Positions 9,305-26,899 of a stretch of 64,000 bases of DNA are shown piece after piece (position 1 is the stretch's first letter; each line of letters begins with the position of its first letter). Under the pieces are notes generated by a model, which was not told the DNA's origin, ran no database searches, and saw nothing but the letters and a program-made list of their open reading frames with translations. This DNA is from a virus. The stretch lies in the IMG/VR virus record IMGVR_UViG_3300012642_000011, positions 192,001-256,000 of that record; one strand, written 5' to 3'. Made by a program: the position numbers and the translations under genes.

Positions 9305-10285
9305 ATGAGCGAGAACACAGCCACATACATGGAACGACCATTCATCTCTTACGACGCACCAGATAATGATGGTGTAAGAGAAGAAATCAAGGTTACTAAG
9401 GGAACAGCCGTCGTTGATAACAGGCAAGAGATCGCTAAAATGGTCAAATACCATTTCATTGCAGACAACCTTAAAAAGCATAATGGATTTCCAGCATCCA
9501 TCTCCAAAGATGATAAAGAAATCATTAGAATTCTTGACGAATCACTTGAAAACGGTACACCTGTCTACGTCCGAAAGGAAACCGTCAGGGATCGTAAGAA
9601 GCATACTGATCGCTCTGTCCCCATCGAAGACATCAAGGACAATGAGAAATTTGCTAGAGTTGCAGCAGTGAAGGATGAAAACGGAGAGTACATTTTCGCC
9701 TCCAACAACATGGCTTTAACCAATCCTAAGGAAGATCCCGTCACTGGACCCAAGTCAGCATTGGACATGGAAATCCCTGATGAGATTCCTGTAAACAACG
9801 CCAAACAGTCTTTCTCAAGTCGCAACACCCATGCTGTCGAACTTCCCGCATGGGAGAAGGAGAACAGAGATGGTGCATCTAATCCCGGATCATTTGTAAC
9901 ACAAGCCAATGTATCAGCATACTTCTTTGCTGTAGAAAAACTCAAGGCTGCTGGACTCAGCACCGATCATGAAGATGTTCTCCCTGTTGCAGAAGAGATC
10001 CTTCGTGCTGCCGACATTCTTCAGTTGCTTGTTTACAAGAAAACAGAAGGCAGAGAAGATGTCCTTGACAGTGCAGACAGGTCAATCAACTCTCACTCCC
10101 GCGCACGACATATCATTTTCGAGATGATCAACAATCTTCACCCCATCACTGAAGATGCTGTTGAGGCTATCAAGAACAAGGAGAAGGCAACAGTACCAAC
10201 CCCTTGGATGAAGGAAATCATTAGTGCTTCCAAGGTTATTTTCTTCTGGTCAAATGGATATGACGAGAGTGGCACTGCCTTCTGA
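9305..10285 (+). CDS. hypothetical protein
   Basis: 326-aa ORF with RBS; followed by intrinsic terminator. Confidence 0.45.
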   Translation: MSENTATYMERPFISYDAPDNDGVREEIKVTKGTAVVDNRQEIAKMVKYHFIADNLKKHNGFPASISKDDKEIIRILDESLENGTPVYVRKETVRDRKKHTDRSVPIEDIKDNEKFARVAAVKDENGEYIFASNNMALTNPKEDPVTGPKSALDMEIPDEIPVNNAKQSFSSRNTHAVELPAWEKENRDGASNPGSFVTQANVSAYFFAVEKLKAAGLSTDHEDVLPVAEEILRAADILQLLVYKKTEGREDVLDSADRSINSHSRARHIIFEMINNLHPITEDAVEAIKNKEKATVPTPWMKEIISASKVIFFWSNGYDESGTAF

Positions 10286-10295
10286 TATCGCACAC

Positions 10296-10336
10296 CTATA
10301 GAAAAACCCCCAATTATTTGGGGGTTTTTCTTTGCT
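10296..10336 (+). terminator. rho-independent terminator
   Basis: aaaaacccccaattatttgggggttttt hairpin with T-tract. Confidence 0.7.
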
Positions 10337-10411
10337 CTAAAGTATAATTCTTTAATTATTTATTTCTGATATTTTTGATTGTAACTTTACAATAAAGTTA
10401 TAACTGTTTCC

Positions 10412-10750
10412 ATGGAACTACTAACAGGAATTGATAACATGAAGAATTTCTTTAACAACATTGAGTCTGTTATCGCTGCATCCAAGGCTCAGGAAGAGCA
10501 GGATCGCGCAGACCTCGTACAGACAATCATCATCATCGCCGGATTCGCAATTGCTGCAATCGCAGTTGTTGGTTGGATCTCAACCGCTCTCTTCGGAATC
10601 GGTGCTGACACTGCTAGGTGCATCACTGGTGTACAGACATATGGCGGATCAGCTGCTACAACACAGGAGAACTGTGAGGCTCAGGGTAACGCTGCGAAAG
10701 CTGATGGTCAAATCACTAATGACGCAGCATACAAAGGCCGCTTTGGCTGA
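10412..10750 (+). CDS. small membrane protein, possible pilin-like subunit
   Basis: TM helix IIIIAGFAIAAIAVVGWISTALF followed by G/A/T-rich tail; start may be the internal Met at 10439. Confidence 0.3.
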   Translation: MELLTGIDNMKNFFNNIESVIAASKAQEEQDRADLVQTIIIIAGFAIAAIAVVGWISTALFGIGADTARCITGVQTYGGSAATTQENCEAQGNAAKADGQITNDAAYKGRFG

Positions 10751-10794
10751 TACCAATAAAGGTCAGGGACTGGTTCATCTGATCTGAAGTTTCA

Positions 10795-10850
10795 GAGACT
10801 CATCTGAAATAAATAAGAGAATCCCACTCTATACGGGTGGGATTCTTTTA
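10795..10850 (+). terminator. rho-independent terminator
   Basis: gaatcccactctatacgggtgggattc hairpin followed by tttta. Confidence 0.6.
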
Positions 10851-10996
10851 TGCCCAATTACCATTGAATTAATTTCTCACAAGAAAACTCTGATCAGAAA
10901 AATAGAAAGAAAACCAGAACGAATCTCTTAGTAAATAAAAGGATATGTTGATATTTCACAACATCAGGATAAGACAAGACAAAAGGACAAAAGACT

Positions 10997-11902
10997 ATGG
11001 ACTACCCTCTCATCATTGGCATACTCGTTGCTCTGATTTTTATCATCATAATGTATGAACTGCTTGTCCCCAAGTCAACTAGAGGACTAGTCTTCCATGA
11101 TGAGAATGCCTTCAATAAGAACCCCATTATGAAAGGATTTGCTGCGTTCGGAAACGAACTCTACACAGCATTACCTGAAGGTGTTCAAGTGGGCAACAAA
11201 GAGCGATACCCTCTCATCGAAGAATTAATTGTCAAATCAGGCAACCCATGGAACATCAACGCAAGAGAATACAAGATGATGCAAATCGTCCTTGCCGTCG
11301 TCGGTGCCATTGTCGGCGTTGCACTCTGGGCATCATTATACTTTGCACAAGGATTAACATGGTTACCATGGTGGGCATGTATTCTCGCCGGTACTGGATT
11401 GGGTTACATCACACCACACTCCAAGTATAAAGAACAAGCCAACCTCAGAGACCTTGAATTCAGAAGGCAACTACCAGAAGCCCTAGACCTTCTCATTATC
11501 ACTGTTGCATCAGGAGCCACAGTAGTCAACGGAATGAAGAACATTCTCCCTGACCTTCAGCCTGGCGTGGTTAAAGAAGAGTTCAAAAACATTGTCACCC
11601 ACGTTGAATCAGGTGGATCATTTGATGCTGCACTAGAAAACCTTGCTCTCAGAGCACCCAATGATGGTGTGGAAACATTCGTCAGGGCGCTTCAGGAAGC
11701 CAACAAGAGAGGATCAGACACTGTGGAGATCCTTGAATCCAGAGCAGAAGAATCCCGAAAAGATTTCTTCACGCTTCTAGAAAAGAAAGTTGCTACACTT
11801 TCCAGTAGGGTATTTATGATCCTCACGCCTACACTTATGCCCGCAGTTATGATTATTGCTATTGCACCATCTGCTGCATCACTTGCCGAGTCCCTTGGAT
11901 GA
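10997..11902 (+). CDS. TadB/TadC-like type II secretion F-domain membrane protein
   Basis: N-terminal TM, central cytoplasmic domain, C-terminal TM pair; position immediately upstream of CpaF-like ATPase. Confidence 0.5.
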   Translation: MDYPLIIGILVALIFIIIMYELLVPKSTRGLVFHDENAFNKNPIMKGFAAFGNELYTALPEGVQVGNKERYPLIEELIVKSGNPWNINAREYKMMQIVLAVVGAIVGVALWASLYFAQGLTWLPWWACILAGTGLGYITPHSKYKEQANLRDLEFRRQLPEALDLLIITVASGATVVNGMKNILPDLQPGVVKEEFKNIVTHVESGGSFDAALENLALRAPNDGVETFVRALQEANKRGSDTVEILESRAEESRKDFFTLLEKKVATLSSRVFMILTPTLMPAVMIIAIAPSAASLAESLG

Positions 11903-14625
11903 TTGGAGAAGAAATGAAGAAATCTATTTTTGACCGTAAGAACAATGAAAACGATAGGGACAGAGGAACCATTGGATCACACCATGATGACCCTATGAGC
12001 GAAACCACAGATGCCCCACGACGCACCACTGGACTGCCTACCAACATCAGCAAGGACTTTGTTGAAATGCTCAATGATGATGCCAGTATGAAAGAGGCAT
12101 CAGAGAAAAGAAAGCAAAGAATTCTTTCATCGCATGATAACGATCCTGTAGCAAAGGCCATTCTTGAACAAGAAGGAAGATTAAAAGAGAAGTATGCTAT
12201 GGGAGGCGCAAGAGCAAAAAGAATACTCACTACAGACATCCTCATTGATGCTCCTAAAGATTATTTCACCAAGTACTATGACTTCGTAGCGAAAGCCGTC
12301 AGTGAGGCCAGAGAAGCCATCACGGCTAGAGGATTCTCCGATCACCTTGCTGATGCACTTGACAACCCCGCTGACGAGAAAATACAAGAAGAAACATACA
12401 GGAAGATTGAAGGAATCATTTCTGAGAAAATAGAAAATTCTCCCTTCACATCTACTATTGATACTCTCATCATTAGAACACTTGCCATTAACGATATCAT
12501 GGGATTCGGAATCATTGACCCATTATGGAGAGATAAAGAAGTATCCGAAATCATCATCAATGGACCTTACGATGTGCAAATTGAAAGACACGGAAAACTT
12601 TCTCGTGTGCCAGGTGCTCAATTCATTGACACTGCGCACCTCTATGACCTTATAGAAAAAATCTATAGGACGACAGGTAAAATGCCTTCTGCAACTTCTC
12701 CTCTCGTCAAAGGAAACCTCCCCGACAAGTCACGTGTCTTTGCTGTGGACACTTCAATTGCACCTGCTGGACCCAACCTCAGCATCAGAAAGCACCCTGA
12801 AAGATACTGGACTCCTGAAGATATGGTGAAACTTGGGTCTGCCAGCGAAGAACTCATGACTTACATAGGAAACCTTATTTACAAGGGCGCATCAGTTCTG
12901 GTTGTAGGCGGAACACACTCAGGAAAAGCACTGACACTTGACACTTTGATCAACACCCCACAAGGTCAAATCTCCATGAATGACATCAAAGAAGGAGATC
13001 AGGTCATTGATCATAATGGCATCATCGGAACTGTGCAAGCAAAGTATCCACAGCCTGCACGTCAAGTGTATGCTGTTGTCTTCTCCAATAAGGAAGTCGC
13101 ATTCTGTGATCTTGAGCACAATTGGTATGTCTATGATACTGATGGTCAATCACATGTAATGACCACAGAAGAAATCATTAACAGCGGAATCAGCAACGGT
13201 GAAGGAGAATACAAATTCAGTATACCATCATTGTCTACCCCTGTAGAATATGAATCAGGAATGACTCCTGATGAATTCGCACATCATCCCTACAAGATAG
13301 GCATTTCAGTTGGAAGAAAATGCGCTCTTCCTGACTACTTAAATGACATTGATTCCCCAAACAATAACAAGTACAGGGCAAACCTCGTCCAGCATGGTAT
13401 TATTGAACGCACTGAAAGCATCGAGAAAATAAAGATCAATGCTGACAGGTATGTTGGCCCACACCACATTGAAGACCAATACAAATTCTCCTCTGTGGAA
13501 TCAAGAAGGCACCTTCTTGCAGGATTAATTGACAGCATTGGATACAGCGGCAACTCCACAGGAACATGGAACCTTAAAGTTACCTCTGAAACACTGGCAT
13601 CTGACATTCAATTCATTGCGTCCTCTCTTGGATACATTGTAGAAATCTGCACTGCAAAGAAAGAAAGTTACGTTCAAGAGGGTACACGAGTTGAAGATGT
13701 AGAACTCTGGGAAGTTAAGATCAATTCCTCAGAAACTCTTGGATACAGCCATATATGGGAAACAATGATCGAAGAGATGGACATTGAGCATCAAGCAACC
13801 AATGTCAACATTGTTTCTATTCAACCCGTTGAGGGAAGAGTTGAGGAAATGGCATGCATCACTGTGGACACACCAGAAAACACCTATACTATAGGCAATG
13901 GGTTTACCACTACTCACAACACTACTCTCCTCAATGCATTCACAGGGTTCTATAAGAACACAGTAAGAATTGTCACCATTGAAGATAACATCGAAATGAA
14001 GCCCAACCCCAAGAAAATGTTGGCTCAAGCCATGGAGACAAAACCTGCATCAAGGAGTTCAAGTTCTACACCTGTAGAGATGACAGACTTGGTAAGGGCA
14101 TCTACACAGATGAGACCTGACGTAATCATTGTTGGTGAGGTTACTGACCAAAGCGCCCTTGACCTCATGGAAGTCATGAATACAGGTCACGCCGGAGCAT
14201 CCACTGTCCACGCTAACACTGCAGGCACATCCGTCAACAGAATGATTTCTCTGGCAAAGAAATCACAATTGGTTGACTACCAGGCAGCACTGGATATGTT
14301 TGCACAGGCATTTGACATCATTGTTGTCACACAATATTCCACTGTTGACCATTCAAGAAGGATTGTGAATGTCTCAGAAGTGGGACATAGACCTACAATC
14401 ATTGATGGTATCCCTACAGTTGAAACCTACCCACTATGGAAGTTCGTCAGCAGTGGAAGAGATGCCAATGGAAAGATTCAAGGAGATTGGGTAAAAGTAC
14501 AAGATATATCTGAAAGAAAGAAAGAAGACAAGAACTTGAACATGGAAGAAGATCTCACATGGGAACAATTGAAAGAAATCAGTAGCATCCCAGAAGAGAT
14601 GCAGCCAAAAATCGAAGATGACTGA
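11899..14625 (+). CDS. CpaF/TadA/VirB11-family secretion ATPase interrupted by an intein
   Basis: Walker A VVGGTHSGK then, after 331 inserted aa, TTLLNAFTGF (canonical GxGKTTLLNAL split); downstream His-box/Asp-box region typical of the VirB11/CpaF fold. Confidence 0.8.
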   Translation: MIGEEMKKSIFDRKNNENDRDRGTIGSHHDDPMSETTDAPRRTTGLPTNISKDFVEMLNDDASMKEASEKRKQRILSSHDNDPVAKAILEQEGRLKEKYAMGGARAKRILTTDILIDAPKDYFTKYYDFVAKAVSEAREAITARGFSDHLADALDNPADEKIQEETYRKIEGIISEKIENSPFTSTIDTLIIRTLAINDIMGFGIIDPLWRDKEVSEIIINGPYDVQIERHGKLSRVPGAQFIDTAHLYDLIEKIYRTTGKMPSATSPLVKGNLPDKSRVFAVDTSIAPAGPNLSIRKHPERYWTPEDMVKLGSASEELMTYIGNLIYKGASVLVVGGTHSGKALTLDTLINTPQGQISMNDIKEGDQVIDHNGIIGTVQAKYPQPARQVYAVVFSNKEVAFCDLEHNWYVYDTDGQSHVMTTEEIINSGISNGEGEYKFSIPSLSTPVEYESGMTPDEFAHHPYKIGISVGRKCALPDYLNDIDSPNNNKYRANLVQHGIIERTESIEKIKINADRYVGPHHIEDQYKFSSVESRRHLLAGLIDSIGYSGNSTGTWNLKVTSETLASDIQFIASSLGYIVEICTAKKESYVQEGTRVEDVELWEVKINSSETLGYSHIWETMIEEMDIEHQATNVNIVSIQPVEGRVEEMACITVDTPENTYTIGNGFTTTHNTTLLNAFTGFYKNTVRIVTIEDNIEMKPNPKKMLAQAMETKPASRSSSSTPVEMTDLVRASTQMRPDVIIVGEVTDQSALDLMEVMNTGHAGASTVHANTAGTSVNRMISLAKKSQLVDYQAALDMFAQAFDIIVVTQYSTVDHSRRIVNVSEVGHRPTIIDGIPTVETYPLWKFVSSGRDANGKIQGDWVKVQDISERKKEDKNLNMEEDLTWEQLKEISSIPEEMQPKIEDD
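12928..13920 (+). mobile_element. intein (331 aa) with LAGLIDADG homing-endonuclease domain, Ala1 (KlbA/class-3-like)
   Basis: Inserted between GK and TTLLNAF of the P-loop; begins ALTLDTLI (block A with Ala1), block B-like DLEHNW, LAGLIDADG motif LLAGLIDSIG (nt 13513-13542), block F MACITVD, ends TTTHN followed by Thr+1. Confidence 0.7.
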
Positions 14626-14640
14626 TGAGAACCAAAGGCA

Positions 14641-14680
14641 GGTTGTCAGCACTAATCGCTGGCAACCTGCCTTTTCGTTG
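14641..14680 (+). terminator. rho-independent terminator
   Basis: ggcaggttgtcagcactaatcgctggcaacctgcc hairpin followed by ttttcg. Confidence 0.65.
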
Positions 14681-14748
14681 ATATATAAAATGAGTTGATT
14701 TCATCTTGAAATCCCCCAATACGAAAACGAGAAAAGGTTGACAAAGAC

Positions 14749-15711
14749 ATGACATTAGATCAACTATTACCCTACATCATCGCAATTCTTTCAGGATTAC
14801 TGGTGGTCGTAGTAGCCTATGCTGTTCAGAAGTATCTTAGACAAAATTCCCTTGATGAGAACTTTCAAGCACAATTTGAAGCAATCACAAGAGATCCTGT
14901 TGACGCTGCCGATGAAGAACTTCTTCAAAAGGAAAAAGGACTGTCCATATTGGACAGATGGAACAGAGGATGGGACAGGAGTTTTAAAGCAGCAGGATTC
15001 AAGAGGTATGCTGAAGACCCCAATAGAGCTGGAACAGATATGCTCATTCTTTCCCTCATACTCATGGTTGCAGCATCAATCTTTGCCAAGAACATTCTTG
15101 CTGGTGTCTTTGGTGTCGTCATTGGAATGTCCATTGTCGGAATGATGGCAAGAAGCGCAGCCAATAAGAAAATTGCTAGAATTGATGAACAACTCAATGG
15201 ATTCCTTTTCTCATTCAAAGCCAACATTCAATCAGGAATGTCAAATGAAATCTCCTTTATCAACATTGTAGACAAGACAAAAGATCCACTTAAAAGCGAA
15301 CTCATACCTGCTAAAAATGATATCTTGTCCAGCAAAGGATTCGTGACATCCCTCATGAACCTCAGAGCGCACACCCCATCAAAAGATCTTCAGTTCCTTT
15401 GCTCATGTCTTATTCAGGGAACACAAAGCGGATCTGGATTAGAAAACCAGATCGACAAAATCCAAGATGTCATGAAATCAAGACGAGATATCAATAATAA
15501 GATTGAAGTTGCCATGAAGGAACCCCAACCAGCCATCTGGTTGTCCAGCTTCATCCTCCCTGCCCTCTTCATCTACTCCTATACTACAAGCCCACCCGGA
15601 TTTTGGTTCGTCAACCCTTGGTCATGGTTAGCATTGGCAGGCGTTGCAATTCTTTACTTCATTGGCATCTTTGTCATGAGAAAGATGGTGGATAAGATCA
15701 AAAACTTGTGA
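14749..15711 (+). CDS. TadC-like polytopic membrane protein
   Basis: 320 aa, N-terminal TM, central soluble region, C-terminal TMs; synteny with Tad components. Confidence 0.4.
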   Translation: MTLDQLLPYIIAILSGLLVVVVAYAVQKYLRQNSLDENFQAQFEAITRDPVDAADEELLQKEKGLSILDRWNRGWDRSFKAAGFKRYAEDPNRAGTDMLILSLILMVAASIFAKNILAGVFGVVIGMSIVGMMARSAANKKIARIDEQLNGFLFSFKANIQSGMSNEISFINIVDKTKDPLKSELIPAKNDILSSKGFVTSLMNLRAHTPSKDLQFLCSCLIQGTQSGSGLENQIDKIQDVMKSRRDINNKIEVAMKEPQPAIWLSSFILPALFIYSYTTSPPGFWFVNPWSWLALAGVAILYFIGIFVMRKMVDKIKNL

Positions 15712-15758
15712 ATAAAACAGTTGATCATAAACGCCAAAAATCAAAGAAAGAGTAAACA

Positions 15759-16316
15759 ATGAAAACAAAAGAATTCCTTTTCACCATCCCAGCAAAGAAA
15801 ATCATCAACTCAAACCAATCTATTCACTTGATGGTCAAATCACAAAGAAGCGCATACCTGAGAAAGATCTCTCAGGATGCCGGTGCTTACGAGCACACTC
15901 AAAAAGAAGAAGCACAACAGTACTTAGATCGTAACAGGGGATTGCAAGAAAGAAGCAATAAAAAGGGATCAGTTACAAAGAAGATGAAGAAAGCAAACTG
16001 CACACCAGAAGAAATTGCAGAAGCAATGGAAGACATTGATAGGACGTTCCCTATTGTTGATACTCCCTCTGGACTTGAATATGAATTCAAAGGAAGATTT
16101 GAAGCAACCTGTATCATACATACTCCCACCAAAAGACACATAGACCCACCAAACCTATGGCCTACAGTAAAACCCCTCCTTGACGGGCTGACAGACAGTG
16201 GGTGGTGGGAAGACGATGATTCTACCAGATTGGTCAGAACCTCTTTTGAAAGAGGGGAGAACTCAACTTCTAAAGGGGACTACCAAATCACCATTATCAT
16301 CAAAGAAATTTCTTGA
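15759..16316 (+). CDS. hypothetical protein
   Basis: 185-aa ORF with RBS. Confidence 0.35.
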   Translation: MKTKEFLFTIPAKKIINSNQSIHLMVKSQRSAYLRKISQDAGAYEHTQKEEAQQYLDRNRGLQERSNKKGSVTKKMKKANCTPEEIAEAMEDIDRTFPIVDTPSGLEYEFKGRFEATCIIHTPTKRHIDPPNLWPTVKPLLDGLTDSGWWEDDDSTRLVRTSFERGENSTSKGDYQITIIIKEIS

Positions 16317-16376
16317 TGATATCAATGAAAAGATACTTAACTAAGACGTAAACAAAGAAGCGGAGAGAATGCCACC

Positions 16377-16847
16377 ATGGAAAAGAACTATATTACGGTC
16401 CAAATGTTCACCGATTTCTTCAACAGGAAGAGATCGATGTATGCAATTGGTGACGTTCGCCTTCCTGCACCCATCCCATTGGCATTCATGGGATGGTTCG
16501 TAGGTGGCTTAATAATTTACTCTATACCTCTGTTCCTTTTCATTGGCATAGAGAACATGTCCCTCATCAACCTTGCTATAATTCTTGGCCCACCCATTCT
16601 TTTTGCATCCATTTCGAGCAAACCTATTTTTGGAGGAAGAAGTTTCCTCGGTTTTCTCAAGTATGCTTTCTCTTACATCACATCACCTAAAGGATGGATT
16701 GACACAGAAGGATATTACAGTAAAGAGGAAGGCAATTATGTAGTCAATTCATACATCTGGATCAGCCGAAGAAGAGAATTCTATCGACTTGCCGAACTTG
16801 AAGATGAGGAAAAAAGAGCTAAAAAGAAAGATCAATCTAATTCATAA
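16377..16847 (+). CDS. membrane protein, unknown function
   Basis: 156 aa, two to three TM helices. Confidence 0.35.
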   Translation: MEKNYITVQMFTDFFNRKRSMYAIGDVRLPAPIPLAFMGWFVGGLIIYSIPLFLFIGIENMSLINLAIILGPPILFASISSKPIFGGRSFLGFLKYAFSYITSPKGWIDTEGYYSKEEGNYVVNSYIWISRRREFYRLAELEDEEKRAKKKDQSNS

Positions 16848-16914
16848 TACACTGAATCATAAATAAAAATTCTATTAAATAAAATTATTTTTCCCCAGTT
16901 AAGGAGAGATTATC

Positions 16915-18111
16915 ATGACAGTAAAATCTACCAGCCTACTCATAGGACAGACAAGCAGAGGCGTAAGGAACCCCGTCCCCTTTGACTTACACACCCCCAT
17001 AAGGAACAATCAACCACCGGGATGTGTCATCACCGGAAAACCAGGATCGGGAAAGACATACCTCCTACAATTGCTCACAACCATGTCAGCGCTGCTTGGT
17101 AAAACAACTATCGTTATTGACCTTAAAGGCGACTTCCTCAACCTGAAGCCTATTGCTGACGAAATCGGAGTAGATGCAAGATTCATTGACATTGCGAAAA
17201 AGAAAGGCGCTCTAGACCCCTTCTACATCGGAGAAAACCCAGGAGACAAACTCAGCCTTATTCTTCAAGTCATTGATACACTTGTTGGTGGCATCACACG
17301 AGATGAATCCACACTGCTCACACCAGAAATCCGAGACCTCATCCAAGCCAGTGAAAATAAAAGAAACCAGATATCACTAACCAATGTTGTCAGCAACCTC
17401 CTAAGATCCACACATAAGGATCTTGTGAACATTGGATCAGAATTAGAATCCATCAGCACACTACCCTATGCTAATCTTCTCTTTGCACCAGGTGGCGGAG
17501 CAAAAAGCAAAATTAATTACTATAAAGGTCTAACCATCTTCCCACTTATAGGACTCAAACTTCCTAACGAAGAGGACTTTGATGAAAATAATTCAAGGAG
17601 ATCAGGCGCTTCAACAAACATCAACGAAAACCTCTCATCAGCAATCATGCTCATGCTCACAGAAGTTGTTTCAAGACTCATGATGAGAGAAACGCCAGAA
17701 CCAAAGACACTGGTCATCGATGAGGCATGGGTATTGGCATCAAACAAATCAGGACAGGAATGTATTAAGAAAATCGCACTTCTAGGAAGAAGCAAGAATA
17801 TTGCTCTCGTCATGGGATCACAGAAGAACTCCCACTACAGTAATTTCGACATTGATGTGACAATCTCCACGAGATTCTGCTTCAAAACAAGTATCAAAGA
17901 AGCAGAAATGCTTGTTAAAGAAATGCAACTACCTGAAGAAGAAGGTTTTGAAAACAACCTCACAGAACTCCAAACAGGAGAATGTCTCATGATGGACTGG
18001 AAAGGAAACTACTCCACAGTACAAATCAAAACCATTAAATCATCATGGCATTACTACTTCAGAAGCGACCCACAAAAGGACGCCGCAATAAGAAGATCCA
18101 AAGGAAAATAA
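16915..18111 (+). CDS. VirB4/TrbE/HerA-like (DUF87-type) secretion/translocation ATPase, short form
   Basis: Walker A GKPGSGKT followed by VIDLKGDF, Walker B LVIDEAW, trailing LLGRSKNIALVMGSQ block typical of VirB4/TraC-type ATPase domains. Confidence 0.5.
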   Translation: MTVKSTSLLIGQTSRGVRNPVPFDLHTPIRNNQPPGCVITGKPGSGKTYLLQLLTTMSALLGKTTIVIDLKGDFLNLKPIADEIGVDARFIDIAKKKGALDPFYIGENPGDKLSLILQVIDTLVGGITRDESTLLTPEIRDLIQASENKRNQISLTNVVSNLLRSTHKDLVNIGSELESISTLPYANLLFAPGGGAKSKINYYKGLTIFPLIGLKLPNEEDFDENNSRRSGASTNINENLSSAIMLMLTEVVSRLMMRETPEPKTLVIDEAWVLASNKSGQECIKKIALLGRSKNIALVMGSQKNSHYSNFDIDVTISTRFCFKTSIKEAEMLVKEMQLPEEEGFENNLTELQTGECLMMDWKGNYSTVQIKTIKSSWHYYFRSDPQKDAAIRRSKGK

Positions 18112-18164
18112 TATGATATTGATTTCATAATGTCTGCTTCACAATACATTCAAAAGGATAAAAA

Positions 18165-19139
18165 ATGAAAAATAAACTCGGCACGAAAAGCGCCAACACA
18201 AACCTCATTATATGGATCGTCGTCCTTCTCATTGCGCTGGCAATCATGTTCCTCGTCGCACTTGTCATGAGGAACGCCACAGAAACAGACCAGTTCTACG
18301 TACTGAACACACCAGTGGCAGCAAAGAGTCAGATCACACCAGAAATGCTTGAACCAATGAACGCAGTCAAAGACCAAGCACCACCTAATGCTCTCGACAT
18401 TGGTGACATTCAAGCAGGTGGAATCTACGCTCAATACCCACTGAACAAGGGTGACATTGTCTCAGGATCAAACGTATCAGGATTCACAGATATCTCAACA
18501 GGAATCCCAGATAACTGGGTTGTCACCAACTTCGCAGTAAGCCCAGACAACGCTGTTGGCGGTAGAATCACCCGAGGCACATACTTCGACATCATGGCAT
18601 ACGATAAAGACAAGGGAGCATACTACCCCTTCGTCAACGTACTTGCACTTGACACCACTGTATCCACCAACAGCCTCTCCAGCGCACAAGCAATTGACAG
18701 CCCAGAGGCACAAGACGGACAGACACAACAATACTACGTTGGCATGTCACCTCAAGATGCAGGAAAACTTCAAGCACTCATGTCATCAGGAGACCAGATC
18801 AAACTTGTCCTCTCCCCACGACAGAATGAGTACCAGAACCCTGACCTCAACGCTTACAAGGGATTCTTCAAGTACGAGAATGACAAGGGTGAAGCCATCT
18901 GGCCAGGTAAGTCTGCAGGAGGAGAAATCACAGACTACACCTTCTCAAAGGTCGAAAGAGATGAATTCGGAAGGCCCCTACAAGGACCAGACGCTGGTAG
19001 CATAGGAAACGCTGGAATCCCAGCAAACGGAAACTCAACCGCGCCAACAGAGGACGCTCCTGAGGAATCCGCAAGCCCATCAGCATCTGAATCCACACCT
19101 ACTGAAAGCGCAAGCCCATCAGCAAGCCCCACAAGTTGA
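18165..19139 (+). CDS. CpaB/RcpC-like pilus assembly protein (SAF domain) with low-complexity Ser/Pro/Ala tail
   Basis: N-terminal TM, FYVLNTPVAAKSQITPEML SAF-like region; C-terminal ESASPSASESTPTESASPSASPTS. Confidence 0.45.
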   Translation: MKNKLGTKSANTNLIIWIVVLLIALAIMFLVALVMRNATETDQFYVLNTPVAAKSQITPEMLEPMNAVKDQAPPNALDIGDIQAGGIYAQYPLNKGDIVSGSNVSGFTDISTGIPDNWVVTNFAVSPDNAVGGRITRGTYFDIMAYDKDKGAYYPFVNVLALDTTVSTNSLSSAQAIDSPEAQDGQTQQYYVGMSPQDAGKLQALMSSGDQIKLVLSPRQNEYQNPDLNAYKGFFKYENDKGEAIWPGKSAGGEITDYTFSKVERDEFGRPLQGPDAGSIGNAGIPANGNSTAPTEDAPEESASPSASESTPTESASPSASPTS

Positions 19140-19149
19140 TAGGGAATAA

Positions 19150-19190
19150 GTAAAATAGGCGGGATGCTCATGTCCCGCCTATTTTGTTGC
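19150..19190 (+). terminator. rho-independent terminator
   Basis: aataggcgggatgctcatgtcccgcctatttt. Confidence 0.7.
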
Positions 19191-19398
19191 TTCTAAACTG
19201 AACGAATATGCTAAAATCATCATAATACAACTCTTGATATGAATCATTGGATAGCAAATAAAAACACACATAAATTAAGAACAAGACATTTAAAATAAAT
19301 ACAGTCAAGGATTCAAGCAAGAAATCACTGGACTCAAAAGAAAGAACAGATATTCACTTATAGTAAAACTGTTCGATGTAAAGACGAGAGGGAGAGGC

Positions 19399-20775
19399 AT
19401 GGTTAACAAGCCCAAAGCAGTATATATAGGACCACCTAAGATCGGTGCTGCAATTATGAAAAGAGTGACAGAATGGTCATTCGTTTACGCAGACTCCACC
19501 ATACAAGGGTTCACAGACAAACTGGACAATGATGAGATCGACAACGACATACAATGTATTCTCATCCACGATTCCCTCTACGTGCCCACAGCAGACAACT
19601 CTCCACAGCCATTCAACGTGTTTGCAGCACAGTACTCACCCTACTGCTTCTTCGGCATTCTAGAGTACCATGAGAACTACACACCAAGGATCAAGGAAGG
19701 CGTCTCATCCATCCTCAGCAACATGACAGGAGAAGATGAAACAGACCTTTACTTCATCTCAAAAGAAAACTTCAAACCAAGGCTCATCTCCAAAGTAGAA
19801 AGCTACATCTCCAAGCACGATAATGAAGTTGCCGCAATACTTGCAGGAAGAGAACCACAAAACATTGTTGACGAAGAAATCGAAACACGAAAAAGAGAAA
19901 TCGAAGACAACAATCACAGGATCGAAGAAGCCAAGTCCAAGTACCAATCAGGAGACCGTGACGGAAAAATCATTGCCTGCACCTCATCCAAGGGAGGATC
20001 AGGAAAATCAACCATCACACTTCTACTTGCAACCTACCTTGCTCATTCATCCATCCAATCTGTCAAAGACGGAGCAGAAAAAGAACCTCTCAAAATCTGC
20101 GTACTCGACCTTGACACCAAGGACGGGCAAATAGGATTCATCACAGGTGCTGTCAAGCCAACCATTACACATCTACAACGACATGGCATCACCAAAGAGA
20201 CAGTTGAACAAACTGCCATCTTCAACGACAGGCTCAAGGTTGACCTCTTCCTTGCTCCACAACGACTGCAAACAGCATTAGAGATCGAAGCAGGATTCTA
20301 CCAAGAACTCATAGCATTCCTGAGAACACAGTATGATTACGTCATCCTCGACACCTCAGTGAACTACTACGACCCCCTCCTTGGACAAGTCGCCTACCCC
20401 ATGGCAGACTTCATCATTTTCGTCACAGACATCGTGATCAACTCCATCTTCTCCATGAGCAGATGGATCACCAACGTCACCATGCCCATTGAGCGAAAAG
20501 GACTCGGAATCCCCAAAAGGAAAATCGGTATCATCATCAACAAAGCATCTACTGGTGTAAACATGCCACCAGAAAGAATCAGCAGCTTTGCAAATGGTGT
20601 CAGAATCATCACCGCAATCCCATCACAAGCCAAACTAATGGCAAACGCAGCCAACACTCAATCAATGGACCAAGCACTCAGAGACCCAACCATTAGAAAA
20701 CGAATAAGGAAGATCGCACAAGGCGTAGCAGGAAGAAACTACAAACTTGCCGAAAACTTCGCCATTGGTAGATAA
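19399..20775 (+). CDS. ParA/MinD-family ATPase with N-terminal extra domain (CpaE/TadZ-like)
   Basis: Deviant Walker A SSKGGSGKSTIT, LDLDTKDG, about 190-aa N-terminal domain as in CpaE. Confidence 0.5.
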   Translation: MVNKPKAVYIGPPKIGAAIMKRVTEWSFVYADSTIQGFTDKLDNDEIDNDIQCILIHDSLYVPTADNSPQPFNVFAAQYSPYCFFGILEYHENYTPRIKEGVSSILSNMTGEDETDLYFISKENFKPRLISKVESYISKHDNEVAAILAGREPQNIVDEEIETRKREIEDNNHRIEEAKSKYQSGDRDGKIIACTSSKGGSGKSTITLLLATYLAHSSIQSVKDGAEKEPLKICVLDLDTKDGQIGFITGAVKPTITHLQRHGITKETVEQTAIFNDRLKVDLFLAPQRLQTALEIEAGFYQELIAFLRTQYDYVILDTSVNYYDPLLGQVAYPMADFIIFVTDIVINSIFSMSRWITNVTMPIERKGLGIPKRKIGIIINKASTGVNMPPERISSFANGVRIITAIPSQAKLMANAANTQSMDQALRDPTIRKRIRKIAQGVAGRNYKLAENFAIGR

Positions 20776-20868: not shown

Positions 20869-22416
20869 TCAAGACTCACCACGCATGATCTTATTGAACA
20901 ATTCCAAATTGGGAGCATAAGAAGCCGCAACCTCCAAAGTACAATCATTCTTCCTCACAGCATTAGCTAAAGCATGCTCCATCGTCAACCCATTCCTAAT
21001 CATATATTGTTTAATAGACCACGTATCACCCTTCAAGATCATGGGCCTGATCTCATCAACAACAGGAAGAGCACAAGATACACTAATCAAGTTACCATTC
21101 TTCTTAGAAGGAACCAATACCTGATTCACCACCCCAATCAACTGCTCATTCAAAGAAGTCAACACCGTCTGCCTCTCCTCACCAGAATACTGAGCAATAA
21201 TTCTCGTAATAGCAGTCTCAGGACTATCAACGTGCATAGTAGACATAGAAAAGTGACCAGACTCAGCAGCCCTCAAAAACTCATCGACCTCAGACCTATC
21301 CCTAATCTCACCCACCATAATCATCTGAGGATGCTGACGCAAAGCACCCTTGATACCATCAGCAAAAGTCCTCAAATCAGTACCCAACTCCCTCTGAACA
21401 ATAAGACCTGCAGAATCATCAAAAACATACTCAATAGGATTCTCCAACGACACAATCTTCTTCGGATCTCTTCTCAAAACCTCATTCACAATAGAAGCAA
21501 ACGTCGTTGACTTACCGGAACCAGTAGCACCACACACCAAAACCATACCAGACGCCCTCTTCACCCACTCCAAAAGATAAGGATGAACACCAATCGCTTC
21601 AGGAGTAGGAATCTTAGAATTAATAATACGGAACGTCATATCCGGCGAATCACTAGTATGAGCAATATTCAACCTCGTCCTCACACCCCTATGCCTACCA
21701 GAATTAATCACATAAGCAGTATCAGCACCACGATTCTGAGCAAACTCACGCCTCTTCACATTACTGACAATCTCCGTCAAAAACCTTTCCACAACAGACA
21801 CAGGAATAACCCCGAAATCATTATAAGAACTCACTTTCTTATTAATCGTCAACCACACAGGAGCATCAGGCTTAATATGCACATCAGAGGCACCCTTATC
21901 AATCCCAAAAGCAAGAATCTCATCAATCTTTATATGAGCATAAGGATCATCTTCTTCATCATCGTCATCCTCATCAAAATAACCCTCAGAAGGATCAAGA
22001 GAGGCACGAGAGAGAATAGCATCCAGATCTGAATCAACTACACCACCACCTGATGAAACCCTCTCAGAATCGCTCTCAGGCTGTTCTACAACACCACCAT
22101 CCCTCAGAGCCAAAATGCTCTCAAAGTCATCCTCATCATCATCGTCATCATCCTCAACGATCTCTACAACCTCTTCCTCAACATCAATATTAGTATCCAT
22201 ATAGACATCAGCAGGAGAACGAGAAAGATCAACAGGAGTATCATCATCAGGCAAATCATCATCCTCATCAGAATCAAACGTAGAATTAATGATTTCCGTC
22301 TTATCCAAAAGACTCTGCTCCCTCAAAGCAAAAAAATCATCATCAGAAAACTCATCATTCTCATCTGGAAGATCATCATTCTCATCAGGCAAATCATCAT
22401 CAAAAGAAAAACTCAT
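20869..22416 (-). CDS. PilT/PilB/GspE-family secretion ATPase with about 160-aa D/E-repeat N-terminus
   Basis: Walker A CGATGSGKSTT, LENPIEY, Asp box VGEIRD, His box GHFSMSTMH; N-terminus DDDLPDENDDLPDENDEFSDDD repeats. Confidence 0.75.
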   Translation of the reverse strand: MSFSFDDDLPDENDDLPDENDEFSDDDFFALREQSLLDKTEIINSTFDSDEDDDLPDDDTPVDLSRSPADVYMDTNIDVEEEVVEIVEDDDDDDEDDFESILALRDGGVVEQPESDSERVSSGGGVVDSDLDAILSRASLDPSEGYFDEDDDDEEDDPYAHIKIDEILAFGIDKGASDVHIKPDAPVWLTINKKVSSYNDFGVIPVSVVERFLTEIVSNVKRREFAQNRGADTAYVINSGRHRGVRTRLNIAHTSDSPDMTFRIINSKIPTPEAIGVHPYLLEWVKRASGMVLVCGATGSGKSTTFASIVNEVLRRDPKKIVSLENPIEYVFDDSAGLIVQRELGTDLRTFADGIKGALRQHPQMIMVGEIRDRSEVDEFLRAAESGHFSMSTMHVDSPETAITRIIAQYSGEERQTVLTSLNEQLIGVVNQVLVPSKKNGNLISVSCALPVVDEIRPMILKGDTWSIKQYMIRNGLTMEHALANAVRKNDCTLEVAASYAPNLELFNKIMRGES

Positions 22417-24540: not shown

Positions 24541-24544
24541 ACCT

Positions 24545-26050
24545 CACACTAGAATCCCATATACATATAAGATCACAACAATCAACCCTGAACAAAAACA
24601 ATCCCAACAGAAAAATCCAAGATCACGTAATTGAACAGATCAATGTATTGTAACAAAAATAAACCTACCACAACGCAAAAATATACAGCGCAAACTCCAC
24701 ACCACCAACCAAAACAACACCCTCACACAACCACACCACAATACCCAAAACAGACCATCCTATACTTTAAAATAAATAAATAAAAACAGCCAACAACGCA
24801 CACTCAAGCCAACAAACCCACAACCAACATCCAAAGCACCACAATAGACAAACACCACCTACTACACCAAACCATTAAAACAATCAGTACTAAGAACACC
24901 CACACAACAATAAACTTCATAAGCACACCACAACAACCAACAACACTCAAAGACACAAGAACACAAGCACACAAGACAACCAAGCACACAAAAGAAATAC
25001 ACCAGCAGCGCACATAACCTGAGCATAGACATCAAAGCCAAACCACGATTACAAAAACACAAATCAACCCAAAGCCACGCACACACAAAACAAAAATGTA
25101 TAAATTAAAACCTAAAATCAAACATTCAAAACACCAAAACAACGCACACCAAGACTACAAAGAACACAAACAAGCGCCCAAAACCGCCAGTATAAAATCC
25201 CACAACACACAACGTGCTATACAAACCAACCCAACACAAGCACACAAAACAAACTCTTCTACACTATAAAACTACACAACCCAACCTCAATCACGCAACA
25301 CAGTCATCACAATCAAAGCCCAAAAACAAACCTCAAAGACTCCACAGCCCAACCTAAAAACCATATAACCTAAACCAAAAACAACACAACTGAACCTAAA
25401 ACTTTACAACAAGACACTACACAGACAGAAAAATAACTCATTAAAACCTTAAAACCAATCACCACAAATTTTAAACCCAAGCATCACAAACTCCAAAATG
25501 ATGCAACACAAACCTTAAACCAAGTATTAAAAACCGCATGGCACAAAATACAAACTTTAAAATCATGCCTCACAAACTTTAAAATCGCGCCTTACAAAAC
25601 CGCACCACACATATTACAAACTTTAAAACCACGCAACAGAAGACAAAACAACCACGATACAAATACATACTACAGAACACAAACACAGTCAAACCAACAC
25701 TGCAAACACACCCAAACCAATACTTTCAAACATTCAAATCAACTTCGCCAAACACCTAAACTAACACCGCCAAACAATCAACACCAATACCCAAACAACA
25801 CCCTAAAACAAAAAACAAACACTCCAAAATAAAAATCAACAATGAAAACACTACTACACCAACAATGAAAACGCTACTACTACAACCAGAAATAAATCAA
25901 AATTATCAACACCCTGTGCAAAACATGATTCCCAACCCAAAAACCCCAATAACAACACTAAAAAATAGGAAAAAATAGAAACCATTCGAAAACGAATATA
26001 AAAATAGAAACCAGGGTACAAACCAGGTTTTACTGTCAAAAGATTTCAGA
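24545..26050. repeat. about 1.5 kb C+A-rich, G/T-depleted strand-skewed low-complexity non-coding region with short direct repeats
   Basis: Top strand almost devoid of G; repeats such as acaaactttaaaa(t/c)c at least 3 times around 25.5 kb; no credible ORF on either strand. Confidence 0.6.
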
Positions 26051-26126
26051 AGCTTCTGAAATCCTTTGTATCAAAAATCATAATTATCAACAATCCCGCT
26101 CCCGCCACACCCAGAACTACTTCTTC

Positions 26127-26178
26127 TGTGGATAACTAAACAACGAATGTGGATAAGAATACTTCTACATGTGGACAA
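26127..26178 (+). promoter_or_regulatory. cluster of three DnaA boxes (TTATCCACA x2, TTGTCCACA x1 on the minus strand) spaced 21-22 bp
   Basis: tgtggataa at 26127 and 26148, tgtggacaa at 26170, all in the same orientation. Confidence 0.5.
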
Positions 26179-26426
26179 GATGTTAACACTACAACTACAA
26201 CAAACATATATACAAATACAACGACAACAAACACACCTACCACAACTACGAATACCACCACCACGAACACGATCACAGTTAACACGATGAAGACCCTCAC
26301 AGCCTTCATCACAACCAGTACACACGCTCACGCGAACACCCCCACGCGCTCAGTACACGATCTCACGATCATCACCAACCAGCACACGCTCAAGGAACAG
26401 TGACCTGTACATGCTGACATGGGAAG

Positions 26427-26779: not shown

Positions 26780-26899
26780 CACTGTTGTGAGCAGTAGGTC
26801 AGAGAAATAAAGTGGGACTATGATGAGGTAGGTTCCTCGTGAGAGGTCATCATCTGAAGAAGGGGAATCATGAGGGGGATAGTTTCCGTAGAGAACCTA

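What the first reader, a model, noticed from the sequence alone, without database searches (positions are those of the whole stretch)
12928..13920. Ala1 (KlbA/class-3-like) LAGLIDADG intein inside the P-loop of the CpaF/VirB11-type ATPase
The host protein's Walker A lysine (VVGGTHSGK) is followed directly by a 331-aa insertion. The insertion begins ALTLDTLI and ends TTTHN, with Thr+1 opening the expected TTLLNAF. Ala rather than Cys/Ser at position 1, a Trp right after the block-B His (DLEHNW) and a Cys in block F (MACITVD) resemble the WCT class-3 splicing route. A LAGLIDADG motif (LLAGLIDSIG) indicates a homing endonuclease domain. Inteins in secretion ATPases of mobile elements are rare, and splicing would be obligatory for pilus or T4SS function.
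Basis: partly seen in the sequence, partly recalled or inferred. Interest (0 to 1): 0.6.

Follow-up and report, generated by a model that had tools for sequence, protein, structure and literature searches.

The report
Class 3 intein in pilus ATPase
A self-splicing protein insert (a class 3 intein whose homing endonuclease has decayed) interrupts the ATP-binding loop of a Tad/VirB11-like secretion ATPase on an uncultured large mobile element; it is a genuine but fairly ordinary new example of a well-described kind.

Summary
Nt 12928-13920 encode a 331-aa insert between Lys343 and Thr675 of a 908-aa T2SSE-family ATPase (VVGGTHSGK|ALTLDT…TTTHN|TTLLNAF).

It is a class 3 (WCT) intein, not a KlbA/class 2 one. 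Ala1, Asp61-x-x-His64, Trp66, Cys310, Thr329-His330-Asn331 and Thr+1 align residue for residue with the Msm DnaBi1 class 3 intein (6bs8).

Among 140 nearest relatives, Trp is kept in 139, Cys in 140 and Thr in 137. Residue 1 varies (A, P, S, E, L, M…).

Intein-less homologs read GGTHSGK-TS without a gap. Two roughly 90% identical large contigs differ by a clean 1317-nt intein indel.

The AlphaFold2 model (pLDDT 86) matches PI-SceI and 6bs8.

The LAGLIDADG domain is present, but both catalytic Asp positions are replaced (Arg130, Ile204) and it is shortened. The copy is probably immobile and vertically inherited.

The same-site intein is not rare. It occurs in 24 of the 150 best cluster representatives and in one RefSeq actinobacterial megaplasmid.

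Splicing itself is inferred, not shown. Verdict: a new member of a known kind, of modest interest.

The parts
11899..12927 (+). N-extein of the T2SSE-family ATPase (precursor aa 1-343), ending in Walker A ...GGTHSGK (Lys-1)
   Evidence: ORF; junction; Pfam T2SSE and NCBIfam TadA/FlaI/TrbB/VirB11 hits. The start codon overlaps the stop of the upstream T2SSF gene by 4 nt.
12928..13920 (+). Intein, 331 aa (37.0 kDa): a class 3 splicing domain split by a degenerate LAGLIDADG domain
12928..12966 (+). Block A (ALTLDTLINTPQG); residue 1 is Ala, a non-nucleophile
   Evidence: Aligns with ALALDTPLPTPSG of 6bs8. Residue 1 varies among relatives: A94, P10, S9, E9, L4, M3....
13102..13131 (+). Block B (FCDLEHNWYV): Asp61-x-x-His64 and Trp66 (B:12), plus Cys60
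   Evidence: His is kept in 140/140 and Trp in 139/140 relatives. These residues align with D62, H65 and W67 of Msm DnaBi1 (PMC6195587).
13258..13797 (+). Homing-endonuclease-like domain (intein residues ~111-290), degenerate
   Evidence: PF05204 scores 27.6 bits against a cut-off of 21.1. The profile matches PI-SceI residues 210-406. Identity to P0002/P0003 is only 45-46%, against 64-71% in the exteins. pLDDT is below 50 at residues 131-145.
13285..13326 (+). Remnant of LAGLIDADG motif 1 (HPYKIGISVGRKCA); Arg130 occupies the position of the catalytic Asp
   Evidence: Aligned without gaps to HPYLLGLWLGDGSS of P0004/5/6/9. That motif aligns with PI-SceI LLGLWIGDG, Asp218.
13507..13548 (+). LAGLIDADG motif 2 (RHLLAGLIDSIGYS); Ile204 occupies the position of the catalytic Asp
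   Evidence: Direct alignment to PI-SceI FLAGLIDSDGY, Asp326; relatives have GLIDSDGW.
13840..13896 (+). Block F (VEEMACITVDTPENTYTIG); Cys310 (F:4, nt 13855-13857) is the predicted initiating nucleophile
   Evidence: Cys is kept in 140/140 relatives and aligns with Cys118 of 6bs8.
13900..13920 (+). Block G (GFTTTHN): Thr329 (G:5), His330, Asn331
   Evidence: Thr 137/140, His 139/140 and Asn 140/140; aligns with T137-H138-N139 of 6bs8.
13921..14625 (+). C-extein (precursor aa 675-908 plus stop), opening with Thr+1 (13921-13923), which completes Walker A as GKT-T
   Evidence: Intein-less homologs read GGTHSGK-TSLLNAL. The +1 residue is T in 111, S in 24 and C in 5 relatives.
10997..11902 (+). 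Upstream TadB/TadC-like platform protein (T2SSF)
   Evidence: PF00482, E 1.3e-15.
14749..15711 (+). Downstream TadB/TadC-like platform protein (T2SSF)
   Evidence: PF00482, E 2.2e-7.

Best explanation
The 331-aa insert is a class 3 (WCT) intein sitting in the classic P-loop site, between the invariant Walker A Lys and Thr, of a Tad/VirB11-like secretion or pilus ATPase. The gene is translated as a 101-kDa precursor whose ATP-binding loop is interrupted.

The inferred reaction follows the class 3 pathway established for the MP-Be DnaB, Msm DnaBi1 and Mch DnaB1 inteins:
1. The thiol of Cys310 (block F:4), assisted by His64 and Trp66 of block B, attacks the Lys343-Ala344 peptide bond. This gives a thioester block F branched intermediate.
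2. The N-extein is passed to the hydroxyl of Thr+1, giving the block G branched intermediate.
3. Asn331 cyclises, helped by His330, and releases the 37-kDa intein.
4. An O-to-N acyl shift makes the Lys-Thr peptide bond and restores GGTHSGKTT in a 64-kDa ATPase.

The embedded LAGLIDADG domain has lost both catalytic Asp residues and part of its length. This copy is therefore most likely no longer mobile and is inherited vertically with the ATPase gene. It is kept splicing-competent because the ATPase cannot work otherwise.

What is shown: intein identity, insertion site, class 3 residue signature, fold, presence/absence polymorphism and decay of the endonuclease motifs. What is inferred: that this copy actually splices, the order of the steps, and that the precursor is inactive.
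For: Identity and class:
- Single-sequence PDB search: the best hits are the Ala1 class 3 DnaB inteins 6bs8 and 6rix, aligned at both termini. The profile gives E 2e-21.
- Query D61, H64, W66, C310, T329, H330 and N331 align with D62, H65, W67, C118, T137, H138 and N139 of Msm DnaBi1, whose WCT triplet is defined experimentally (PMC6195587).
- In 140 inteins taken from the best hits of the exhaustive search: His 140, Trp 139, Cys 140, Thr 137, Asn 140. The +1 residue is T111/S24/C5. Residue 1 is a non-nucleophile in 128.
- Within the orthologous ATPase inteins, residue 1 is A, S, E or M, while WCT and Thr+1 are invariant.

Insertion:
- Four intein-less homologs are gapped exactly between GK and T.
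- After in-silico splicing, all family hits become one stretch and TIGR03819 rises from 161 to 176 bits.
- L007 (intein+) and L009 (intein-) have 94.5% identical exteins and collinear flanks at 88-93% identity. They differ by exactly 1317 nt, between AAG and ACN.

Fold:
- AF2 mean pLDDT 86, pTM 0.86.
- Foldseek top hits are PI-SceI (E 2.5e-13, TMq 0.64), TliVMA and PI-PfuI. 6bs8 is covered at TMt 0.78-0.82.

Selection for splicing:
- The C-terminal splicing region (68-71% identity to P0002/P0003) is as conserved as the exteins (64-71%). The N-terminal splicing region is at 53-59% and the HE-like region at 45-46%.

Endonuclease decay:
- Arg130 and Ile204 sit at the positions of PI-SceI D218 and D326.

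Mechanism precedent: PMC2807308, PMC5222942, PMC7664689.
Against: No experiment shows splicing of this protein. [quoted passage not shown] The query lacks the equivalent of Msm DnaBi1 Cys48 (it has Val47), a residue that was essential in that intein (PMC6195587). Block B position 7 is Asp rather than Thr/Ser, although Asp is the commonest residue at that column among the relatives (60 of 140). Loss of endonuclease activity is inferred from two substitutions and a shortened domain, not measured.
Confidence: 0.85

Rival explanations
1. The intein is a splicing-dead relic. The ATPase gene is effectively a pseudogene, or its product works only as an unspliced or cleaved protein. The function would then be supplied by another ATPase, for example the second T2SSE gene at 20869-22416(-).
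For: The endonuclease half is clearly decaying. A second T2SSE-family ATPase with an uninterrupted Walker A (GATGSGKST) lies 6 kb away. Inactive class 3 inteins exist (PMC3196547).
Against: The ORF is intact over 908 codons. Every splicing residue is retained, and the C-terminal splicing block is as conserved as the exteins across relatives that are only 54-56% identical overall. The exact protein recurs on 8 independent metagenome contigs. The exteins keep Walker A (after ligation), the DVIIVGE box and the NTGH...HAN box.
Confidence: 0.08
2. [quoted passage not shown]
For: It starts with Ala1, as KlbA inteins do, and the host belongs to the same broad VirB11/KlbA ATPase superfamily.
Against: Class 2 is defined by lack of the WCT triplet, and its known members use Cys+1 with Asp at F:4 (PMC2807308). 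Here WCT is complete, +1 is Thr, and F:4 is Cys in 140/140 relatives. Even a class 3 intein with a natural Cys+1 could not use the class 2 route (PMC5222942). No KlbA intein chain appeared in the PDB sequence search at E<=10.
Confidence: 0.03
3. The intein is still an active mobile element: its LAGLIDADG domain cuts intein-less alleles and drives homing despite the unusual motifs.
For: PF05204 is above its cut-off. The fold of the domain is predicted with mostly good confidence and matches PI-SceI. Homing at this site clearly happens in the family: a clean indel between ~90% identical elements, with a compositionally foreign intein in L007 (GC 0.413 against 0.522).
Against: Both catalytic Asp positions are substituted (Arg130, Ile204). 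Relatives with intact motifs are 30-130 residues longer in this domain. Intein GC equals extein GC in the window (0.419 against 0.431). The intein's relationships mirror those of the exteins (closest to P0002/P0003 in both), which fits vertical descent.
Confidence: 0.1

Closest known systems
Class 3 P-loop inteins: Mycobacterium smegmatis DnaBi1 (PDB 6bs8), M. chimaera DnaB1 (6rix/6riy), mycobacteriophage Bethlehem DnaB intein
   Same: Non-nucleophilic residue 1 (Ala), the DxxH-x-W block B, Cys at F:4, T-H-N at the C terminus and Ser/Thr at +1. Insertion is between the Walker A Lys and Ser/Thr. These are the best sequence matches and their fold is covered at TMt 0.73-0.82.
   Different: The host is a T2SSE secretion/pilus ATPase rather than a replicative helicase. 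The window intein retains a (degenerate) LAGLIDADG domain, whereas the Msm and Mch inteins are mini-inteins. It lacks the Cys48 equivalent that forms the redox trap in DnaBi1. The BLASTP-type identity was not computed; the HMMER alignments cover only about 70 N-terminal and 25 C-terminal residues.
KlbA (class 2) inteins of archaeal VirB11/KlbA-type ATPases
   Same: Ala1, and a host protein from the same broad secretion-ATPase superfamily. Archaeal VirB11 (21) and CpaF (5) inteins are tabulated in PMC4760082.
   Different: KlbA inteins lack WCT, have Asp at F:4 and use Cys+1 (PMC2807308). The window intein has WCT and Thr+1. No sequence match appeared in the PDB search. Whether the insertion site is the same was not tested.
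Burkholderia vietnamiensis IcmO class 3 mini-intein (type IV secretion coupling protein)
   Same: A class 3 intein in an ATPase of a secretion/conjugation machine, shown experimentally to need Cys F:4 (PMC5222942).
   Different: A different host family (IcmO/DotL coupling protein), Cys+1 instead of Thr+1, and a mini-intein.
PI-SceI (VMA1 intein) and related bipartite LAGLIDADG inteins (PI-PfuI, TliVMA)
   Same: Two-domain architecture: a HINT splicing domain interrupted by a LAGLIDADG endonuclease. These are the top Foldseek hits. The HE region of the family profile matches PI-SceI at E 5e-13.
   Different: PI-SceI is a class 1 intein (Cys1) with catalytic Asp218 and Asp326. The window copy has Arg and Ile at those positions and a shorter domain.
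Same-site intein in Miltoncostaea oceani plasmid NZ_CP064357.1, WP_217924774.1 ('ATPase, T2SS/T4P/T4SS family')
   Same: T2SSE-family ATPase with GEMGAGK|AQSLDS…DEHLW…MVCISID…IVTHN|TSMINM, that is the same site and the same WCT signature. It is flanked by a T2SSF gene and a prepilin peptidase gene.
   Different: Only 23% identity to the window intein. Its LAGLIDADG motifs are intact (LLGLLLGDG, LLDTDG). It comes from a cultured actinobacterium. The record does not annotate the intein.

Membership tests
Intein (HINT splicing domain) | Blocks A, B, F and G with block B His, C-terminal His-Asn and a nucleophilic +1 residue | tested here: met
   His64, His330, Asn331 and Thr+1 are present. They are invariant or nearly so in 140 relatives. 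Profile E 2e-21 to solved inteins.
Intein (HINT splicing domain) | In-frame insertion in a conserved host motif, with homologs lacking it that are colinear across the site | tested here: met
   Intein-less P0010/11/15/20 are gapped exactly at GK|T. L007 and L009 differ by a 1317-nt indel. Family hits become contiguous after removal.
Intein (HINT splicing domain) | HINT fold | tested here: met
   AF2 pLDDT 86. All significant Foldseek hits are inteins, BIL or Hedgehog domains.
Intein (HINT splicing domain) | Autocatalytic excision with extein ligation | not testable with these tools
   Needs expression plus SDS-PAGE/MS; only inferred here.
Class 3 inteins | No Cys/Ser/Thr at residue 1 | tested here: met
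   Ala1. Orthologous inteins have A, E or M, and occasionally S.
Class 3 inteins | WCT triplet: Trp B:12, Cys F:4, Thr G:5 | tested here: met
   Trp66, Cys310 and Thr329 align with W67, C118 and T137 of 6bs8 (PMC6195587). Kept in 139, 140 and 137 of 140 relatives.
Class 3 inteins | Ser or Thr at +1 | tested here: met
   Thr+1.
Class 3 inteins | Absolute requirement for Cys F:4, and a thiol-labile block F branched intermediate | not testable with these tools
   Biochemical criterion (PMC2807308, PMC5222942).
Class 2 (KlbA-like) inteins | No N-terminal nucleophile AND no WCT triplet; Cys+1 attacks the N-terminal junction directly | tested here: not met
   WCT is present and +1 is Thr; definition from PMC2807308.
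Active LAGLIDADG homing endonuclease | Two LAGLIDADG helices, each ending in a catalytic acidic residue (PI-SceI Asp218 and Asp326) | tested here: not met
   Motif 1 is ...GISVGRK (Arg130) and motif 2 is GLIDSIG (Ile204). Relatives P0004/5/6/9 have GDG and SDG. The domain family itself (PF05204) is matched above its cut-off.
T2SSE / PilT-VirB11 superfamily secretion ATPases | Pfam PF00437 above the gathering score; Walker A, Asp/Walker B box and His box | tested here: met
   PF00437 at 100 bits against a cut-off of 24.9. After splicing: GGTHSGKTT, DVIIVGE and NTGH...HAN.
CpaF / TadA / VirB11 / TrbB equivalogs (NCBIfam) | Score above the curated equivalog cut-off | tested here: not met
   The best hit, TIGR03819, scores 176 bits against a cut-off of 373. 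VirB11 scores 141 against 250. All others are also below cut-off, even for the spliced sequence. The flanking T2SSF genes support a Tad-like role.

The most novel reading that the evidence does not exclude
The endonuclease-dead but splicing-competent intein has been retained as a post-translational switch. Because the only initiating nucleophile is a cysteine thiol (Cys310, with a conserved Cys60 next to the block B Asp), oxidants or zinc could reversibly stall splicing, as shown for Msm DnaBi1. That would gate assembly of the Tad-like pilus or transfer machine of a large uncultured extrachromosomal element according to the redox state of its host.
Probability: 0.12. Interest if true: 0.55.

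Novelty: new member of a known kind. Interest (0 to 1): 0.3.

Why it matters
It adds a Tad/VirB11-like secretion ATPase of a large uncultured mobile element to the hosts of class 3 inteins. These were first described mainly in helicases and terminases.

The family gives a compact natural series for the homing cycle at a single site. It contains empty sites, a compositionally foreign intein with an intact endonuclease, full-length inteins with dead endonucleases, and 144-aa mini-inteins.

The free variation of residue 1 (A/S/E/M) against invariant WCT within one orthologous site is clean comparative support for the class 3 mechanism.

In practice, annotation pipelines call such genes simply 'ATPase', as in the RefSeq example. 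The 908-aa product should be read as a 577-aa ATPase plus an intein. None of this changes current understanding of inteins.

Tried and rejected
- Word-indexed homolog search with the intein alone found nothing. The exhaustive search was needed.
- blastn of the gene against the phage and plasmid collections, and megablast of window 40-64 kb against both, gave no match. The element is therefore not a deposited phage or plasmid.
- A scan of GTDB species-representative genomes with the ATPase alignment found no relative.
- A scan with the TnpB-like protein, meant to guess the host, gave only 57% identity to Lachnospiraceae MAGs, which is uninformative.
- I considered the 'Inocle' giant elements of the oral microbiome. 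I rejected that for this window on composition: Inocles are 24-32% GC (PMC12340149), while the window is 41-60%.
- Rfam and tRNA scans of the window were empty.
- Tori & Perler 2011 (PMC3133030), which lists class 3 hosts, is not held. I could not check whether a T2SSE-type host was already listed there.
- The KlbA insertion site could not be compared. No KlbA host sequence was retrieved.
- dN/dS was not attempted, because the nearest DNA relatives with differing inteins are too diverged (51-56% amino-acid identity).
Full report
OBSERVATION. The window contains one uninterrupted ORF at 11899..14625 (+) of 908 codons. Translating 12928-13920 gives 331 residues, ALTLDTLINTPQG…GFTTTHN. In the precursor these are residues 344-674. 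They are preceded by …SVLVVGGTHSGK and followed by TTLLNAFTGFYK. The only imprecision is that Trp66 lies two residues after His64 (block B position 12), not immediately after it.

IT IS AN INSERT IN A SECRETION ATPase.
- Pfam matches T2SSE (PF00437, 100 bits) in two stretches.
- NCBIfam matches the TadA-family conjugal-transfer ATPase, FlaI, TrbB and VirB11 models, each in two stretches that break at the insert.
- After removing residues 344-674 in silico, every hit becomes one contiguous stretch and scores rise. TIGR03819 goes from 161.5 to 176.2 bits and spans profile positions 30-337 of 340.
- The ligated protein reads GGTHSGKTT (Walker A), DVIIVGE and NTGH…HAN.
- No NCBIfam equivalog cut-off is reached. 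The host is therefore a divergent Tad/VirB11-like ATPase, not a strict CpaF or VirB11.
- It is flanked by two T2SSF (TadB/C-like) genes. Nearby are a CpaB-like gene, a ParA/TadZ-like gene, a TcpE-like gene and an AAA_10 ATPase.

HOMOLOGS WITH AND WITHOUT THE INSERT.
- The precursor has relatives of 787-1069 aa that carry an insert at the same place. It also has relatives of 518-608 aa that do not.
- In the alignment, the four intein-less proteins are gapped exactly from after GK to before T.
- On IMG/VR contigs of 117-420 kb, three loci carry an intein and eleven do not.
- L007 (intein+) and L009 (intein-) have exteins 94.5% identical and collinear flanking DNA at 88-93% identity. The only break is a 1317-nt segment lying between AAG (Lys) and ACN (Thr).
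- That intein has GC 0.413 against 0.522 for its exteins. It carries intact LAGLIDADG motifs (LWLGDG, LLDSDGW) and starts with Ser.
- This is the signature of recent gain by homing.

IT IS AN INTEIN OF CLASS 3.
- With the single sequence, the best solved-structure matches are the Ala1 class 3 DnaB inteins 6bs8 (M. smegmatis DnaBi1) and 6rix/6riy (M. chimaera DnaB1). The gp41-1 intein follows. Both termini are aligned.
- A 12-sequence profile raises these matches to E 2e-21. It also matches PI-SceI over the endonuclease part at E 5e-13.
- In the alignment to 6bs8, query Asp61, His64, Trp66, Cys310, Thr329, His330 and Asn331 fall on Asp62, His65, Trp67, Cys118, Thr137, His138 and Asn139. Kelley et al. 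identify Trp67/Cys118/Thr137 as the WCT triplet and Asp62 as part of the DxxH motif (PMC6195587).
- Tori et al. define class 3 by three features: a non-nucleophilic residue 1, the co-varying WCT triplet at B:12/F:4/G:5, and Ser/Thr at +1. Most members sit in ATPase P-loops (PMC2807308).
- Kelley et al. 2016 call the Lys|Thr position the 'classic' P-loop insertion (PMC5050341).
- The exhaustive search found 8290 relatives at E<=1e-3. From the best hits I extracted 140 inteins:
  - block B His 140/140, Trp 139/140, block F Cys 140/140
  - Thr G:5 137/140, His 139/140, Asn 140/140
  - +1 residue T111/S24/C5, and -1 residue Lys in 114
  - residue 1: A94, P10, S9, E9, L4, M3, C3, D2, G2 and others
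- Within the orthologous ATPase inteins, residue 1 is A, S, E or M, while WCT and Thr+1 never change.
- This pattern is what a mechanism that does not use residue 1 predicts.
- KlbA/class 2 membership fails. Class 2 lacks WCT and uses Cys+1 with Asp at F:4 (PMC2807308).

STRUCTURE.
- An AlphaFold2 model built on the 12-sequence alignment has mean pLDDT 86 and pTM 0.86. Low confidence is confined to residues 131-145 and 174-176.
- Foldseek against the PDB returns PI-SceI first (E 2.5e-13, TMq 0.64). Next come the TliVMA/PhoVMA inteins and PI-PfuI. The class 3 mini-inteins are covered at TMt 0.73-0.82.
- Every significant hit is an intein, BIL or Hedgehog domain.

THE ENDONUCLEASE IS DEGENERATE.
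- PF05204 is matched above its cut-off.
- The HE region of relative P0004 aligns with PI-SceI so that LLGLWLGDG falls on LLGLWIGDG (Asp218) and GLIDSDGW falls on GLIDSDGY (Asp326).
- That Asp218 and Asp326 are the catalytic residues of PI-SceI is my own knowledge of the literature.
- The window sequence aligns only weakly to PI-SceI (E 1.3). It has Ile204 at the Asp326 position. In the family alignment it has Arg130 at the Asp218 position (HPYKIGISVGRKCA against HPYLLGLWLGDGSS).
- P0002, P0003, P0007 and P0008 are degenerate in similar ways. P0004/5/6/9 are intact and 30-130 residues longer.
- Identity of the window protein to P0002/P0003 by region:
  - exteins 64-71%
  - C-terminal splicing region 68-71%
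  - N-terminal splicing region 53-59%
  - HE-like region 45-46%
- So splicing function is under constraint and the endonuclease is not.
- The window intein's GC (0.419) equals that of its exteins (0.431). Its closest relatives are the inteins of the closest exteins. Both points fit long vertical residence after loss of homing.

HOW IT MOST LIKELY WORKS. This is inferred from the class 3 literature (PMC2807308, PMC5222942, PMC7664689).
1. Cys310 attacks the Lys343-Ala344 bond with help from His64 and Trp66, giving the block F thioester branch.
2. The N-extein moves to the Thr+1 hydroxyl.
3. Asn331 cyclises with help from His330.
4. An O-to-N shift restores GGTHSGK-TT.
The products are predicted to be 64.4 kDa and 37.0 kDa, from a 101.4-kDa precursor. 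The precursor should be inactive because the P-loop is interrupted. I take this from the RadA P-loop intein precedent cited in PMC6195587. It was not tested here.

HOW UNUSUAL IS IT?
- 24 of the 150 best 50%-identity cluster representatives are T2SSE-like ATPases with an intein at this same site. Their inteins are 144-485 aa, with endonuclease motifs intact, decayed or absent.
- In PLSDB, the Miltoncostaea oceani 815-kb plasmid encodes an 'ATPase, T2SS/T4P/T4SS family' with GEMGAGK|AQSLDS…DEHLW…MVCISID…IVTHN|TSMINM. It lies next to a T2SSF gene and a prepilin peptidase gene. An IncF TraD gene also carries a related intein.
- 577 deposited phage genomes encode relatives at no more than 29% identity, mostly in terminases, helicases and exonucleases.
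- Novikova et al. tabulated VirB11 (21) and CpaF (5) inteins in archaea and VirB4 (5) in bacteria (PMC4760082).
- A class 3 intein in the T4SS coupling protein IcmO is characterised (PMC5222942).
- I found no paper describing a class 3 intein in a bacterial or mobile-element Tad/VirB11-type ATPase.

CONTEXT.
- The exact protein occurs on eight metagenome contigs.
- A relative sits on a 681-kb contig with the same cassette: RadA-like, T2SSF, T2SSE+intein, T2SSF, TcpE, AAA_10, ParA.
- The family is absent from GTDB representative genomes but present on large IMG/VR contigs.
- Neighbours include a PD-(D/E)XK exonuclease, a topoisomerase II/GyrA-like protein, a RadA-like ATPase and a RusA-like resolvase.
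- 'Mobile element' is therefore reasonable. Whether it is a huge phage or a megaplasmid is unresolved.

VERDICT. It is a new member of a known kind. Splicing itself remains to be shown.

Noticed in passing
window 24540-26800: A 1.6-kb non-coding stretch is almost free of G on the + strand (A 50%, C 30%, G 6.6%, T 14%). At about 26.2 kb it flips to G/T-rich sequence, and the cumulative GC skew has its minimum there. At the switch there are five DnaA-box-like sites within 275 nt, including two perfect TTATCCACA on the - strand at 26127 and 26148. They are followed by five exact copies of GGGTGTGCGCA at 26427, 26492, 26559, 26688 and 26769. This looks like a replication origin with iterons. Window-wide, the DnaA-box count is not enriched (20 found against 14.7 expected); only the local cluster stands out.
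   Followed up: partly
window 1-26000 versus 26000-64000: GC content jumps from about 0.40-0.44 to 0.51-0.63 at the same point. Independent contigs that carry the exact ATPase cover only the left part (L002 ends near window 17.1 kb). A mosaic element and an assembly join therefore cannot be told apart here.
   Followed up: no
window 34966-57313: About ten copies of an 60-85-nt intergenic module (…CATGATGTTCTCCTTGAGAGTSGTGGTCTTGGG…CCCTTGACCTGATGA…GGGACGCTCCA). Read on the - strand it ends in AAGGAGA-N-ATG, that is a shared promoter/5'-UTR/RBS cassette in front of many small, often acidic, - strand ORFs. GC-rich hairpin repeats (GCCCCGCCG…CGGCGGGGC) recur between genes like terminators.
   Followed up: partly
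window 37786-39246 (+) and 57837-59048 (+): Two TnpB/IS605-OrfB-like ORFs (phrog_506 transposase) sit in local low-GC pockets. The best genome relatives of the second are only 57% identical (Lachnospiraceae MAGs), so they give no host assignment.
   Followed up: partly
window 20869-22416 (-) and 22489-24540 (-): A second T2SSE-family ATPase has an uninterrupted Walker A (GATGSGKST) and a long, highly acidic N-terminal extension. Next to it is a 683-aa protein with acidic repeats (SDFFLEDEDDEEFTDVISSD occurs twice). Neither carries an intein.
   Followed up: no
window 9305-20775; L001 4676-20347: A hybrid gene cluster combines Tad-like parts (two T2SSF, T2SSE, CpaB-like, ParA/TadZ-like) with Tcp-type conjugation parts (TcpE, AAA_10 ATPase). 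A RusA-like resolvase is embedded at 15759-16316. The arrangement is syntenic with a 681-kb metagenome contig. The family is found on 117-420-kb IMG/VR contigs with GC from 0.28 to 0.55 but not in GTDB representative genomes.
   Followed up: partly
L007 6868-8184 (IMGVR_UViG_3300008485_000052): The same-site intein in this relative starts with Ser1 yet has the full WCT triplet and intact LAGLIDADG motifs. Its GC is 11 points below its exteins. P0005, P0042, P0056, P0092 and P0127 also start with Ser. Whether such Ser1-WCT inteins use the class 1 or the class 3 route is an open point raised in PMC2807308.
   Followed up: no
window 29385-29846, 30000-30467, 31186-31638 (all -): Three paralogous ~150-aa ORFs share an N-terminal QTIENA…D.LPGDH.TW motif (DNA repeat family D9). 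Next to them, at 31744-32496 (-), is a 250-aa protein made of GNA.V-type short repeats. No family search was run on any of them.
   Followed up: no
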